Source: Girardia tigrina (taxonomy: Eukaryota). Taken from it: a stretch of DNA of 64,000 nucleotides. Each line of letters starts with the position of its first letter. Position 1 is the first letter of the stretch. Below, piece after piece: positions 44,988-47,900 of the stretch. Location of the stretch: contig MQRK01243535.1 of assembly GCA_001938485.1 (NCBI GenBank), forward strand, positions 23,426 to 87,425, written 5' to 3'. The position numbers are program-made.

Positions 44988-47900
44988 TACATATGATCAT
45001 CACGTTCATATGGTTTTGTGATGATTGCTGTAAAACCAAGTGACAAACTTTGTCAATTGACGATTCCTCACCGAAATTGTCGATGAAATAATTTACGTCT
45101 TTTCCGATAAACATTTTTCAATTTGTGATTTAAAATGATCGAATCGAAATTTAATATCGTTATTTTCAGTCATTTGGTTTTTGGGTTGAAAAATTGGCAA
45201 TTTTTATTGAAATGTTGGTAACAATCGATTTTTAATATTATTCGTTTATTTAAATTATTAAAACAACCGTTTCTGATTGTTATTAGTCATTGGTTGCGTC
45301 ATTGGTCGATAGATAGCTGTGTGTGTCTATCGTGGTGTGTCAGTGTTGTGCGTGTGTTCGGCCTGGATTTTTGCTGATTGTGAGCCTCATTTTGTTGTAA
45401 TTGTCTTTCTTGAGTTGTGATTTGACAAATGTGGATGTGTGTGTAAATGTTTGAGCCAATGAAATAAGTGGGTTTATGTTTTGATTGAAATTGATAATGT
45501 GAATATAATTCACTTTTTAAATACGGAATAAATATTTTGAAATTAAAAACTTGCTATTGTTATAAAATGATAGAATTATCGGATGGAAATGGTCCAATTA
45601 AAAAGGTGTTCATAGAGTTGTCTCAGACGGTCGTTGAGATTAAAGAGAAATTAAGTAAAATAATTTATAAAGATGCAACCGAAATACAGTTGTATAACGG
45701 TGATACATATCTCGACAATAATGCGCCCATACCGACTGGCGTGACACGACTGATGTACAAAGAGGTGGAGAGAAATGATGATAAAATTTTGAAAGTTACA
45801 ACTCGTACTTGTCGGTTGCCGAAATTGTTTCAAGTTAGCGGTCAAAGACTTGTCGGAGAATTAAAAGAGGATTTAGTGAGAATTGACAATACTGGAAACA
45901 ATATCGTTTTATTTAACCAAAGGGGAGATCAGCTTAATGATAACACCGCAATAGAAGATATCACGGATGACGAAATTAAAATTTGTTACGAGAAGGATAA
46001 ACATCCGACATTATCTGTAAGTGATTTGCATCTAAACAAACCTTCCTCGCAATTTACCTGTGATATCAATAACAAGATAAGCGATTTGAAAAGGAACATA
46101 TGTGACACTTTTAATGTTGATTTTAAAAATTTGGTGCTATTTTCGGAAACCGAATTCCTGCATGACGATACCCTACTGATCGACAATGGGATTGTAAACG
46201 AGGATAATATATTCTATCTGGAATTAATTAATAATGGTGACATAGAGGATCCGAAGCTTTTCAAACAAGGTCAATTTTCCAAGATTTTTAAGGGTCTAAA
46301 TAGACGAACAAATAAACAGATTGTGCTGAAACGATACGAAATAAAGAAACAGAAAGTTAAGGATATAAAGCCTCTCAAATATGAAATCATTACATTCCTA
46401 AAACTAAGAGATTCTGATCATCCAAGATTTGTCCAAGTCGAATGTATGTTTGTAGACAATAAACATTTCTATATCGGGATGGAATTCATGGAAGGAAATT
46501 CCTTAAAAAACCGAATTCCCATCGTCGACACGACCACAATTATTCGGTAATTGAAGCAAATATTGGAAGGCCTTATATTTTTACACGAAATGAAAATCAT
46601 TTATCGAAACCTGAAATGCTCGTGCGTTCTGTTCGATGAGAACGATAACACCAAATTATGCAATTTTCGTTTCTCGAAGTATCTCCAAGGCAATACAGAT
46701 AGTCAAATGAATGAAGGCATTAAGGCTTCGAGACCCATTCAATATAATTGGTCAGCTCCCGAAATGCTAAATGGTGAAGATTTTTCTCAAAATCAATTCG
46801 ATCCGATTTCAAATTCAAATAATAAAAGAACCTCTGCTGAGATACAACACCTTCACTGTTTAAGCTCCAAAAAGATGTACGATATAAATGGTGTAAATTG
46901 TACGAAAAGTGGAATGTTTTTCTTTGGAAGAAGGTAGAATAAATAATGGTTTTATTGTATAATATTTTTTTCATTAAATTTTAGGTTCTTTTTTTCCGAT
47001 GAAACTGCTTTTGATATATGTCCTCCACGAGCACAATATTAGATGTACAAGTATGAAATGCGGATTTCAGAAAACGGATTGTGCACAATGCAAAAAGTAG
47101 GTCAATGGTTAGGCAATGATGTCATAATATTGAGTAATTATGTAGTTTCTCATACGTAACTCNNNNNNNNNNNNNNNNNNNNNNNNNNNNNNNNNNNNNN
47201 NNNNNNNNNNNNNNNNNNNNNNNNNNNNNNNNNNNNNNNNNNNNNNNNNNNNNNNNNNNNNNNNNNNNNNNNNNNNNNNNNNNNNNNNNNNNNNNNNNNN
47301 NNNNNNNNNNNNNNNNNNNNNNNNNNNNNNNNNNNNNNNNNNNNNNNNNNNNNNNNNNNNNNNNNNNNNNNNNNNNNNNNNNNNNNNNNNNNNNNNGGAA
47401 ACCACGAAAAGGTTTCGAAGATGTGGAATTGCAAGCTTTGTTGGACGAAGATGATTCGCAAACACAAAACTAACTGGCAGAGCAATTAAGTGTTACTCAA
47501 CAAGCTGTTAGCAATTGCCTCAGGCAGATGGGAAAGATTCATAAGATCGGCCGATGGGTACCATATCAATTTAACGATAGGCAGATGGAGAGTCGCAAAA
47601 CCACTTGTGAAATCTTGCTTGCACGATACAAAAAGNNNNNNNNNNNNNNNNNNNNNNNNNNNNNNNNNNNNNNNNNNNNNNNNNNNNNNNNNNNNNNNNN
47701 NNNNNNNNNNNNNNNNNACGCCATCCACATCGACAGCCAGACCAAATCGCTTTGGCAGAAAGACAATGCTCTGTGTTTGGTGGGACCAGAAGGGTGTAAT
47801 TTATTATGAACTATTAAAACCCGGTGAAACGGTGAAACGTTACAAACAACAGTTGGTCGATTTATACCGTTCGCTGCTTCAAAAAAGACCTGAATGCCTC

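What the first reader, a model, noticed from the sequence alone, without database searches (positions are those of the whole stretch)
45567..46790. Unusual architecture: three tandem ubiquitin-like domains fused to a catalytically dead MAP3K-like kinase
Seen: three ~70-aa repeats with Ubl-type spacing lead directly into a kinase in which HRD is YRN, DFG is NFR and the Gly loop is KQGQFS. The beta3 Lys, the alphaC Glu and APE are retained. Only one stop occurs in ~1.2 kb, yet the catalytic residues are specifically altered. Known: MEKK2/3 have one PB1 beta-grasp domain and IKK/TBK1 have one Ubl C-terminal to the kinase. I do not recognise a 3xUbl-N/kinase-C family. Inference: the parent gene encodes a lineage-specific pseudokinase scaffold or decoy linking ubiquitin and MAPK signalling.
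Basis: partly seen in the sequence, partly recalled or inferred. Interest (0 to 1): 0.7.

Follow-up and report, generated by a model that had tools for sequence, protein, structure and literature searches.

The report
Ubiquitin-like pseudokinase gene fragment inside transposon
The stretch really encodes three ubiquitin-like domains joined to a catalytically dead kinase, a design shared by a small unnamed protein family, but this copy is a cut-short, stop-bearing fragment sitting inside a Tc1-type jumping gene.

Summary
45567-46799 (+) encodes three about 72-76-residue ubiquitin-like domains: AlphaFold pLDDT 91.6; best Foldseek matches are linear poly-ubiquitin, ISG15 and the USP7 Ubl array. 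They are followed by an STE-group kinase-like domain with YRN for HRD and NFR for DFG.

These substitutions are not local decay. Ten unnamed relatives from an exhaustive search share the Ubl-plus-kinase layout. The DFG Asp is present in 0 of 8 family rows and an intact HRD in 0 of 8. The beta3 Lys, alphaC Glu, APE and DxWSxG are kept.

The window's copy is not an intact gene:
- It has one in-frame stop.
- Homology to relatives ends just after APE; the last 80-90 kinase residues occur nowhere in the window.
- The frame then runs into out-of-frame Tc1-like transposase sequence.
- The fragment lies inside a 5.6-kb Tc1-like transposon (TA-flanked 240-nt inverted ends, 43597-49170), between the transposase's DNA-binding and catalytic parts. 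A mariner is nested about 100 bp downstream.

"MAP3K-like" holds only at STE-group level. No named protein or paper with this architecture was found. Organism, expression and selection could not be tested.

The parts
45567..46799 (+). Intronless 5' fragment of a Ubl x3 / pseudokinase gene: native start codon, three Ubl domains, kinase-like domain up to just past APE; one in-frame stop inside the kinase part
   Evidence: P0002 starts with Met in the same alignment column as the window protein. Single tblastn pieces of 9 relatives end at 46166 (P0012, Ubl-only), 46601 (P0002), 46769 (P0004, P0006) and 46787-46799 (five full-kinase relatives).
45567..45782 (+). Ubl domain 1 (72 residues)
   Evidence: AF2 model elements E2-5, E12-14, H22-33, E40-44, E61-66; repeat alignment A1
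45783..46004 (+). Ubl domain 2 (74 residues)
   Evidence: AF2 elements E72-77, E87-91, H96-107, E113-116, E136-141
46005..46232 (+). Ubl domain 3 (76 residues)
   Evidence: AF2 elements E148-153, E161-164, H171-182, E189-192, E214-219; Pfam ubiquitin residues 163-215, E 7.5e-5
46233..46799 (+). STE-group kinase-like (pseudokinase) domain, Gly loop to APE only; the C-lobe end (DxWSxG and the conserved Arg near the kinase C-terminus) is missing
   Evidence: Pfam Pkinase profile positions 9-89 and 104-176 of 263; motif table; PDB alignments
46800..46940 (+). Tail of the open frame. A short junction stretch, of which 46812-46847 is shared with the C-terminus of P0001, then Tc1-like transposase sequence read out of frame up to the terminal stop.
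   Evidence: tblastn of Tc1-like transposases P0143/P0144 hits 46847-46936 in a different frame from the kinase ORF; P0001 tail match
43597..49170 (+). Tc1-like DNA transposon (5574 bp) that contains the gene fragment and a nested mariner
   Evidence: Inverted repeats I1-I3. End alignment: 240 columns, 95.0% identical, both ends starting CAGTG and flanked by TA. Transposase pieces are colinear with P0142-P0144.
43597..43836 (+). Left terminal inverted repeat of the Tc1-like element
48933..49170 (-). Right terminal inverted repeat of the Tc1-like element
44369..44739 (+). Tc1-like transposase remnant, N-terminal DNA-binding part (about residues 3-140 of the relatives)
   Evidence: tblastn; Pfam HTH_Tnp_Tc3_2, weak, E 0.0055
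44740..46846 (+). About 2.1-kb stretch interrupting the Tc1-like transposase. It holds AT-rich sequence, a 50-N gap, an (AT)n run, about 570 bp of unique upstream sequence and the Ubl-pseudokinase fragment. Bounds are the limits of transposase homology.
   Evidence: No target duplication or inverted ends at its borders: scores 20-25 against a shuffle mean of 21.7, max 33.
44881..44930 (.). Run of 50 N inside that stretch (left as it is); what it hides is unknown
46847..47039 (+). Tc1-like transposase remnant, linker and start of the catalytic domain
   Evidence: tblastn
47036..48302 (+). Nested mariner element (31-nt inverted ends, TA at each side included); two N runs lie inside
   Evidence: Inverted repeat I10, 97%; Pfam Transposase_1 E 9.7e-17 and DDE_3 on 47718-48155; N runs
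48300..48825 (+). Tc1-like transposase remnant, rest of the catalytic (DDE_3) domain to its C-terminus
   Evidence: tblastn, 65-67% identity over the last 102 residues; Pfam DDE_3 E 2.3e-12

Best explanation
The stretch is a truncated copy of a gene from a small, so far unnamed protein family: two or three tandem ubiquitin-like beta-grasp domains followed by an STE-group kinase domain that has lost its catalytic and metal-binding residues (a pseudokinase).

Shown:
- The architecture and the dead active site are family traits.
- This copy carries the native start codon but has one in-frame stop.
- It lacks the last 80-90 residues of the kinase domain.
- It continues into out-of-frame transposase sequence.
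- It lies, with about 0.8 kb of upstream sequence, inside a Tc1-like DNA transposon between the two halves of the transposase gene. A mariner is nested next to it.

Inferred:
- A DNA-level event (capture of a gene fragment during break repair, or insertion at a break) placed the 5' three quarters of the gene into the transposon.
- The fragment is now a pseudogene. At most it could give a 327-residue product of three Ubl domains plus the kinase N-lobe.
- The intact family proteins most likely act without catalysis. The rigid triple-Ubl array would be a poly-ubiquitin-like docking surface, and the pseudokinase domain a binding or allosteric partner of an STE-type kinase cascade.
For: Family and architecture:
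- Exhaustive phmmer of the part before the stop against 1.84 billion representatives gave 24 proteins at E<=0.001.
- I read all 24. I kept 10 as family (P0002, P0003, P0004, P0006, P0007, P0009, P0010, P0012, P0013, P0016) plus P0001, a near-identical partial copy.
- I set aside 13: ordinary kinases without Ubl, or unrelated repeat proteins.
- P0002 aligns over query 20-326 at 37% identity.
- Pfam over the 12 rows of alignment A2 finds Pkinase in 11, ubiquitin in 6 (best E 2.2e-11) and UCH_UBL1 in 1; PB1, DCX and RBD appear in none. P0009 passes the curated cut-offs for ubiquitin (43.8 bits), UCH_UBL1 and Pkinase.

Dead site as a family trait (family rows with a letter in the column):
- DFG Asp 0 of 8 (Asn 5, Gly 3).
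- H-R-D intact 0 of 8; the Asp is kept in 2 of 8.
- Catalytic-loop Asn 2 of 8.
- Gly-loop first Gly 0 of 10, second 9 of 10, third 0 of 10.
- beta3 Lys 9 of 10; alphaC Glu 9 of 10; APE Glu 8 of 8.
- DxWSxG in 7 of 7 relatives that reach it.
- The conserved Arg near the kinase C-terminus in 6 of 6.
- The two active references in the same alignment (P0027, P0032) have all motifs.
- The window copy has the dominant residue in 41 of 55 conserved columns (75%). Intact relatives scored leave-one-out give 64-92%.

Fold.

Truncation: single tblastn pieces of 9 relatives end at 46166 (P0012, Ubl-only), 46601 (P0002), 46769 (P0004, P0006) or 46787-46799 (five full-kinase relatives); no further piece occurs anywhere in the window at E<=0.01.

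Transposon context: TA-flanked CAGTG ends with 240-column inverted repeats at 95% identity. Three full-length Tc1-like transposases map colinearly on 44369-44739, 46847-47039 and 48300-48825. The mariner's inverted ends are at 47036 and 48302.
Against: - A 50-N gap (44881-44930) lies between the left transposon part and the gene fragment, so the left linkage rests on the scaffold, not on read-through sequence.
- No target-site duplication, inverted ends or poly(A) mark the borders of the inserted stretch, so the mechanism of entry is unknown.
- Only one stop and no frameshift occur in about 410 homologous codons, and 75% of conserved columns are kept. The copy is young, and some residual use is not excluded.
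- The evidence for a second copy with the same junction (P0001) is thin at the 3' end: 9 of 12-13 residues, E 0.004 pairwise and E 1.9 against the window.
- The relatives come from unnamed short contigs. Their genomic context, organism and expression are unknown.
- The proposed function of the intact family is pure inference.
Confidence: 0.78

Rival explanations
1. One reading: an intact, functional, lineage-specific pseudokinase gene sits here. The stop would be a sequencing error or be read through, and the C-terminus would simply be short.
For: Long open frame with a native start. Family-conserved columns are kept as well as in intact relatives. There is only one stop.
Against: All 7 relatives that reach that far continue with DxWSxG, and 6 of 6 with the conserved Arg near the kinase C-terminus. 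The window has neither anywhere. The frame's last about 30 codons are out-of-frame Tc1-like transposase sequence. The locus is inside a transposon.
Confidence: 0.08
2. Assembly artefact: the kinase/Tc1 junction or the scaffold join is a chimera made by the assembler in a repeat-rich region.
For: Eight N runs in the window, one of 50 N just upstream of the gene and two inside the nested mariner. The region is dense with repeats.
Against: The right junction (46800-46850) and the sequence on to the Tc1 piece at 46847-47039 are continuous without N. The transposase pieces left and right of the insert are colinear and meet at the same transposase residue, about 138-140. An independent contig's protein (P0001) shares both the Ubl start and the junction stretch.
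Confidence: 0.07
3. Decayed pseudogene of an ordinary active kinase: YRN, NFR and the Gly-loop changes arose after inactivation.
For: The copy is indeed broken (one stop, truncation).
Against: The same positions are non-canonical in relatives of 23-38% identity: DFG Asp 0 of 8. The closest kinase-bearing relative, P0004, has the identical YRNLKCS string. The structural motifs remain conserved.
Confidence: 0.03
4. Processed retrocopy: an mRNA of the family gene was reverse-transcribed into the transposon.
For: There is no intron in 1.2 kb of coding sequence.
Against: The copy is complete at the 5' end, with about 570 bp of unique upstream sequence, and truncated at the 3' end. No poly(A) and no flanking duplication are present. 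This is the opposite of the usual retrocopy pattern (the pattern is recalled knowledge). The relatives are also single uninterrupted ORFs, but their contigs may be transcripts.
Confidence: 0.04

Closest known systems
MEKK2/MEKK3 (MAP3K2/3), STE11 family
   Same: STE-group kinase domain with a beta-grasp module at the N-terminus. MAP3K2 is the best solved-structure match of the part after the stop (9p6a_A, E 6.4e-8). MAP3K2-like proteins are the best named hits of the family profile (E 1e-43 to 1e-38).
   Different: MAP3K2-type hits mostly carry one PB1 domain (PF00564) and, in the two I aligned (P0027, P0032), canonical HRD and DFG. Here there are three ubiquitin-type domains, no PB1 match and a dead active site. 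PAK1-3 score higher than MAP3K2 with the family profile, so STE11 membership is unresolved.
Doublecortin-like kinases (tandem DCX beta-grasp domains N-terminal to a kinase)
   Same: Several beta-grasp domains in tandem ahead of a kinase domain. [quoted passage not shown]
   Different: No DCX match in any of 12 rows. DCLKs are active CAMK-group kinases (recalled); here the kinase is STE-group and dead.
IKK/TBK1 ubiquitin-like domain
   Same: A Ubl domain fused to a kinase (PMC1949818 passage).
   Different: One Ubl placed after the kinase domain, and an active kinase (recalled, as in the finding). Here three Ubl domains come before a pseudokinase.
Linear poly-ubiquitin, ISG15 and the USP7 C-terminal Ubl array
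   Same: Best fold matches of the triple-Ubl model (E 6e-15 to 1e-9). Short linkers join the units.
   Different: TM-scores normalised to the query are only 0.27-0.39, with rmsd 8-16 A: the single folds match but the mutual arrangement does not. Sequence identity is 8-19%. No repeat ends in a diglycine, so these are built-in domains, not a cleavable modifier precursor.
Transduplication / Pack-type DNA transposons
   Same: A host gene fragment lies between the terminal inverted repeats of a DNA transposon.
   Different: Classical cases are plant MULE, CACTA and Helitron elements. One abstract states that transduplication of protein-coding genes was unknown in animals before Turmoil-1 of C. elegans (PMC2572040, search listing and start of abstract only). 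Here the carrier is a Tc1-like element that still holds its own broken transposase. Amplification of the composite is not shown.

Membership tests
Eukaryotic protein kinase superfamily (Pfam Pkinase) | Match to the kinase-domain profile above the curated cut-off | tested here: met
   38.7 and 51.8 bits against a cut-off of 31.7 for the parts before and after the stop; 11 of 12 rows of A2
Eukaryotic protein kinase superfamily (Pfam Pkinase) | Complete domain, Gly loop through the conserved Arg near the kinase C-terminus | tested here: not met
   Profile coverage stops at position 176 of 263; homology to relatives ends at 46787-46799; no C-lobe end elsewhere in the window
Pseudokinase (sequence definition: at least one of beta3 Lys, HRD Asp, DFG Asp missing) | HRD Asp and DFG Asp replaced | tested here: met
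   YRN and NFR in the window; family: DFG Asp 0 of 8, HRD Asp 2 of 8. The definition is as quoted in the passages of 10.1101/168187.
Pseudokinase | Lack of phosphotransfer activity or nucleotide binding | not testable with these tools
   Needs protein-level data
STE11 / MAP3K (MEKK2/3-like) | Kinase domain closest to MAP3K rather than other STE families | tested here: inconclusive
   MAP3K2 is best for the part after the stop and among named proteins. The family profile scores PAK1-3 at 1e-46 to 1e-44 against MAP3K2 at 1e-41. No tree was built.
STE11 / MAP3K (MEKK2/3-like) | N-terminal PB1 domain | tested here: not met
   No PB1 match at E<=10 in the window's N-terminus or at E<=0.01 in 12 rows
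Ubiquitin-like (beta-grasp) domain | Strand-strand-helix-strand-strand fold matching solved Ubl structures | tested here: met
   pLDDT 91.6, three such units; linear ubiquitin chains, ISG15 and USP7 Ubl on top
Ubiquitin-like (beta-grasp) domain | Pfam ubiquitin above the curated cut-off | tested here: inconclusive
   Window 24.4 bits against 25.4. Among the relatives scanned individually, P0009 (43.8 bits) and P0003 (29.9 bits) pass the cut-off while P0012 (24.5) does not. 6 of 12 rows match at E<=0.01.
Ubiquitin-type modifier (conjugatable) | C-terminal diglycine at the end of a unit | tested here: not met
   None of the three units ends in Gly-Gly
Doublecortin-like kinase | DCX domains | tested here: not met
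   No DCX match
Tc1/mariner DNA transposon (the carrier element) | Terminal inverted repeats flanked by a TA duplication | tested here: met
   240 columns, 95.0% identical, TA on both sides
Tc1/mariner DNA transposon (the carrier element) | Transposase with HTH and DDE_3 domains | tested here: met
Tc1/mariner DNA transposon (the carrier element) | Uninterrupted transposase reading frame | tested here: not met
   Split by two inserted stretches, with at least three changes of frame among the five colinear tblastn pieces
Transduplicating (Pack-type) transposon | Host gene fragment between the element's ends | tested here: met
Transduplicating (Pack-type) transposon | Several copies of the composite with the same junctions, plus a separate parent gene | tested here: inconclusive
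   One protein from another contig (P0001) shares the Ubl start (about 95% over the first 83 residues; 74% over the 123-column alignment) and 9 of 12-13 junction residues. Its DNA could not be fetched (collections closed). No parent gene is in the window.
Processed retrocopy | Poly(A) tail and flanking target duplication | tested here: not met

The most novel reading that the evidence does not exclude
An undescribed family of STE-type pseudokinases carries a rigid, linear-poly-ubiquitin-like triple Ubl array in place of the single PB1 of MEKK2/3. In this AT-rich eukaryote, probably an invertebrate, a Tc1-like transposon has picked up the promoter-proximal three quarters of one member and copied it at least once. 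That would be a rare animal case of gene-fragment capture by a cut-and-paste element.
Probability: 0.25. Interest if true: 0.65.

Novelty: new variant of a known kind. Interest (0 to 1): 0.45.

Why it matters
Pseudokinases and beta-grasp modules are each well known. A tandem triple-Ubl array fused ahead of a dead STE-group kinase was not found under any name here. If the intact relatives are expressed, they would be a new type of non-catalytic signalling protein presenting a built-in poly-ubiquitin look-alike. The family-wide loss of the DFG Asp, with the structural motifs retained, makes that testable by structure and expression data.

The locus also shows how a scan can mistake a transposon-borne gene fragment for a gene. 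It is a candidate example of gene-fragment capture by a Tc1-type element, which is little documented outside plants.

Tried and rejected
1. Ciliate genetic code, which would remove the stop. TGA-only ORFs rise everywhere with low GC, but the window's transposase ORFs read in the standard code. Rejected.
2. Single-sequence AlphaFold of the 327-residue part: pLDDT 34.9, unusable. Replaced by the alignment-based run.
I did not make an X-joined version; the two parts were searched apart, so no joined-sequence search exists.
4. P0025 ('MAP3K5', Bulinus truncatus; 281 bits) looked like a named member. Its sequence is a kinase plus pseudokinase tandem without Ubl. Rejected as a member.
5. Paralogues in the window: none.
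6. Target duplication or inverted ends at the borders of the inserted stretch: not above shuffles.
7. Organism:
- The Atlas gave only generic kinase clusters.
- Rfam found 0 families.
- The named transposase hits (beetle, sponge, sand fly) are only 38-47% identical.
- The organism remains unknown.
8. I expected a hAT match for 13167-13634 from a recalled motif. Pfam gave none.
9. P0001's middle: no Pfam family and no match in the window.
10. Paper searches found no Ubl-pseudokinase family. The Stentor kinome preprint has 0 occurrences of 'ubiquitin'.
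Full report
**1. What is in the sequence**

The window is AT-rich, about 23-35% G+C per 2 kb, with one 2-kb bin at 16% that holds most of a 719-N run. It holds eight N runs, which I left as they are. Nothing suggests a human contig.

From the ATG at 45567 the + strand stays open, with one in-frame stop, up to a terminal stop at 46938-46940. The stop-to-stop frame holding its first part (350 codons) is the longest N-free ORF among the 89 of at least 80 codons in the window.

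I searched the part before the stop (327 residues) and the part after it (128 residues) separately. There is no splice model here: the coding stretch is colinear with its relatives without interruption.

**2. The kinase part**

- Pfam Pkinase matches both parts above its cut-off, covering profile positions 9-89 and 104-176 of 263.
The catalytic-loop Asn is also replaced.
- Solved structures: the second part is closest to MAP3K2 (9p6a_A, E 6.4e-8). The first part is closest to CAMK2, CDPK, RAD53 and STE20-type kinases, E 2e-4 and weaker.
- A profile of the whole family scores PAK1-3 at 1e-46 to 1e-44. STK24, SLK, MST4 and MAP3K2 score about 1e-41, and MAP3K5 about 1e-40.
- Among named proteins in the large protein set, MAP3K2-like proteins with a PB1 domain lead, E 1e-43 to 1e-38. 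That search scored only the 7999 candidates sharing most words.

I therefore call the domain STE-group. 'MAP3K-like' is plausible but not established.

**3. The N-terminal repeats**

- Three units of 72, 74 and 76 residues align in one register. Pairwise similarity is weak: z 2.0-3.1, with 16, 48 and 33 of 1000 shuffles reaching the observed score.
- Their three-row profile finds Ubl domains in the PDB. Ubiquilin-2 UBL (E 2.9e-4) comes first, then hPLIC-2, a Ubl-domain protein, ubiquilin-1, RAD23 and ISG15. There are 15 rows at E<=10; by their names 10 are Ubl proteins and the rest are weak, unrelated rows.
- Pfam ubiquitin on residues 1-222 reaches 24.4 bits, cut-off 25.4.
- Single-sequence AlphaFold failed (pLDDT 34.9).
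- With an 11-row alignment of the window's residues 1-222 and relatives (A3), the model has pLDDT 91.6 and pTM 0.80. It shows three strand-strand-helix-strand-strand units joined by short linkers.
- Foldseek against the PDB ranks linear tetra-, tri- and di-ubiquitin first (E 6e-15 to 1e-10), then ISG15 and the USP7 Ubl array. Query-normalised TM-scores are only 0.27-0.39: the folds match but the mutual arrangement differs.
- No unit ends in a diglycine.

**4. Relatives**

The word-based search found one protein, P0001. The exhaustive phmmer search of 1.84 billion representatives found 24 at E<=0.001. I read all 24.

- Ten share the Ubl-plus-kinase layout or are fragments of it: P0002, P0003, P0004, P0006, P0007, P0009, P0010, P0012, P0013 and P0016, at 23-41% identity's listing.
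- Thirteen I set aside as ordinary kinases without Ubl domains or as unrelated repeat proteins.
- P0001 is a special case (section 6).

In alignment A2, P0002, P0009 and P0012 cover all three Ubl units. P0003 and P0010 start at the second unit. P0016 has one unit.

Pfam over the 12 rows gives Pkinase in 11, ubiquitin in 6 and UCH_UBL1 in 1. PB1, DCX and RBD appear in none. P0009 passes the curated cut-offs for ubiquitin, UCH_UBL1 and Pkinase.

All members come from unnamed sources on short contigs. No named protein has this layout. The one strong named hit, P0025 from Bulinus truncatus, is a kinase plus pseudokinase tandem without Ubl.

**5. The dead site is a family trait**

Counts are from alignment A4, which holds two canonical references, nine relatives and the two window parts.

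| Motif | Family rows with the canonical residue |
|---|---|
| DFG Asp | 0 of 8 (Asn 5, Gly 3) |
| H-R-D intact | 0 of 8 (Asp kept in P0010 and P0009 only) |
| Catalytic-loop Asn | 2 of 8 |
| Gly loop, first / second / third Gly | 0 of 10 / 9 of 10 / 0 of 10 |
| beta3 Lys | 9 of 10 |
| alphaC Glu | 9 of 10 |
| APE Glu | 8 of 8 |
| DxWSxG | 7 of 7 relatives that reach it |
| Conserved Arg near the kinase C-terminus | 6 of 6 |

P0004 carries the same YRNLKCS string as the window. Catalytic and metal-binding residues are lost while the structural motifs are kept.

The window copy has the dominant residue in 41 of 55 conserved columns (75%). That is within the 64-92% of the intact relatives scored leave-one-out. 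dN/dS could not be computed because no coding DNA of the relatives was reachable.

**6. This copy is a fragment inside a transposon**

Truncation. Homology to nine relatives runs as one tblastn piece each. The pieces end at 46166 (P0012, Ubl-only), 46601 (P0002), 46769 (P0004, P0006) and 46787-46799 (five full-kinase relatives). In the full-length relatives this leaves 78-93 further kinase residues (and, in P0003, a long C-terminal extension). The missing C-lobe end matches nowhere else in the window at E<=0.01.

The carrier element. Long inverted repeats lie at 43597-43836 and 48933-49170. They span 240 alignment columns at 95.0% identity. Both ends start CAGTG and are flanked by TA.

The transposase. 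Three full-length Tc1-like transposases were found with the DDE_3 ORF of 48526-48825 (65-67% identity). They map colinearly:
- about residues 3-140 on 44369-44739;
- about residues 130-184 on 46847-47039;
- the rest on 48300-48825.

The transposase frame is broken by two inserted stretches and by at least three changes of frame among the five pieces.

The two inserted stretches:
- A mariner with 31-nt inverted ends lies at 47036-48302.
- A stretch of about 2.1 kb lies at 44740-46846. It holds AT-rich sequence, a 50-N gap, an (AT)n run, about 570 bp of unique sequence and the Ubl-pseudokinase fragment.

Mode of entry. The borders of the 2.1-kb stretch show no duplication and no inverted ends above shuffles, and there is no poly(A). 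So the mode of entry is open. A DNA-level capture or insertion fits the 5'-complete, 3'-truncated shape better than retroposition.

P0001 (389 residues, from a 1523-base unnamed contig):
- It matches the window at about 95% over Ubl 1 and the start of Ubl 2 (first 83 residues; the whole 123-column BLASTP alignment is 74% identical).
- It then has about 290 unrelated residues with no Pfam family.
- It ends with 9 of 12-13 residues identical to the junction stretch 46812-46847.

This hints at a second, rearranged copy of the composite, but the 3' evidence is thin.

**7. Mechanism**

- Shown: the architecture, the family-wide dead site, the truncation and the transposon context.
- Inferred for this locus: a pseudogene fragment that could at most give three Ubl domains plus a kinase N-lobe.
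- Inferred for the intact family: a non-catalytic protein in which the triple-Ubl array is a fixed poly-ubiquitin-like docking surface, and the pseudokinase domain binds or regulates an STE-type partner. No tool result bears on this.

**8. Comparison with what is known**

- MEKK2/3 share the STE kinase type and an N-terminal beta-grasp module. They differ in having one PB1 domain and a live kinase.
- A review of the beta-grasp fold names the IKKs and doublecortin as the known Ubl-kinase combinations (PMC1949818, passages read). Neither matches in domain type, order or activity.
- Five paper searches were run. The four aimed at the protein architecture listed no N-terminal tandem-Ubl pseudokinase; one search concerned transduplication.
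- The Stentor kinome preprint does not mention ubiquitin (passages).
- On gene-fragment capture, one abstract states it was unknown in animals before Turmoil-1 (PMC2572040, listing and start of abstract only).
- Supplementary files were not requested and might list such architectures.

**9. Surroundings**

The window is a transposon-rich region:
- Retroelement pol fragments lie on the minus strand: RNase H-like at 966-1235 and retroviral-type protease at 2472-2768. I take these for the virus-like stretch the operators mention. They are more than 42 kb from the finding. I only describe them and did not count their breaks.
- Other elements are pogo/Tc5-like, piggyBac-like, a second mariner, ISXO2-like and Tigger-like.
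- Likely host exons are a WD40 exon and an SPC22 exon.

The element mix suggests an invertebrate animal, but the organism was not identified.

**10. Verdict**

- The architecture is a real and apparently undescribed variant of known kinds: a pseudokinase joined to beta-grasp modules.
- The locus itself is a broken, transposon-embedded fragment.
- Interest 0.45.

Noticed in passing
window 966-1235 (-) and 2472-2768 (-): Fragments of a retroelement pol gene: RNase H-like domain (E 1.8e-4, below cut-off) and retroviral-type aspartyl protease (E 1.9e-11). Neighbouring ORFs on the same strand gave no Pfam match. This is probably the virus-like stretch mentioned by the operators. It is fragmented; its breaks were not counted and its ends were not sought.
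   Followed up: partly
P0001 (unnamed contig of 1523 bases) versus window 45618-46046 and 46812-46847: The protein shares Ubl 1 and the start of Ubl 2 at about 95% and the junction stretch at its very end. About 290 unrelated residues with no family lie between. It may be a second, rearranged copy of the composite. Its DNA could not be fetched.
   Followed up: partly
window 22091-24950 (+): pogo/Tc5-like transposon remnants: BrkDBD plus HTH_Tnp_Tc5, then DDE_1 in two separate ORFs.
   Followed up: no
window 26973-27467 (+): piggyBac-type transposase fragment (DDE_Tnp_1_7, E 3e-34, profile 82-227 of 349).
   Followed up: no
window 28832-29230 (+): Second mariner-type N-terminal fragment (HTH_48 of Mos1-type transposases), right after a 50-N run at 28703-28752.
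   Followed up: no
window 35649-36164 (+): ISXO2-like (IS1595-type) transposase domain in a eukaryotic setting (E 1.1e-12).
   Followed up: no
window 59324-60883 (-): Tigger/pogo-like element: CENP-B N-terminal and Tc5 HTH domains plus a DDE_1 tail, interrupted by a 161-N run.
   Followed up: no
window 4296-4592 (-), 57023-57364 (+), 19205-19510 (-): Likely host-gene exons: WD40 repeats (E 3.8e-7 and related propeller families), signal peptidase subunit SPC22 (E 3.2e-10), and a weak FAR-17a/AIG1-like match (E 0.0026).
   Followed up: no
window 37987-38358 (+): Cysteine-rich 124-codon ORF with no Pfam match.
   Followed up: no
P0025 (Bulinus truncatus, named MAP3K5 by its source): A 638-residue protein made of an active-looking kinase followed by a kinase-like domain with HKD and GFS at the HRD and DFG positions. 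Its high score with the family profile comes from the two domains, not from Ubl domains.
   Followed up: partly
window 43837-44368: About 530 bp between the left inverted repeat and the start of transposase homology in the Tc1-like element. It contains short direct repeats (D13, D15) and is longer than I would expect for such elements (expectation recalled).
   Followed up: no
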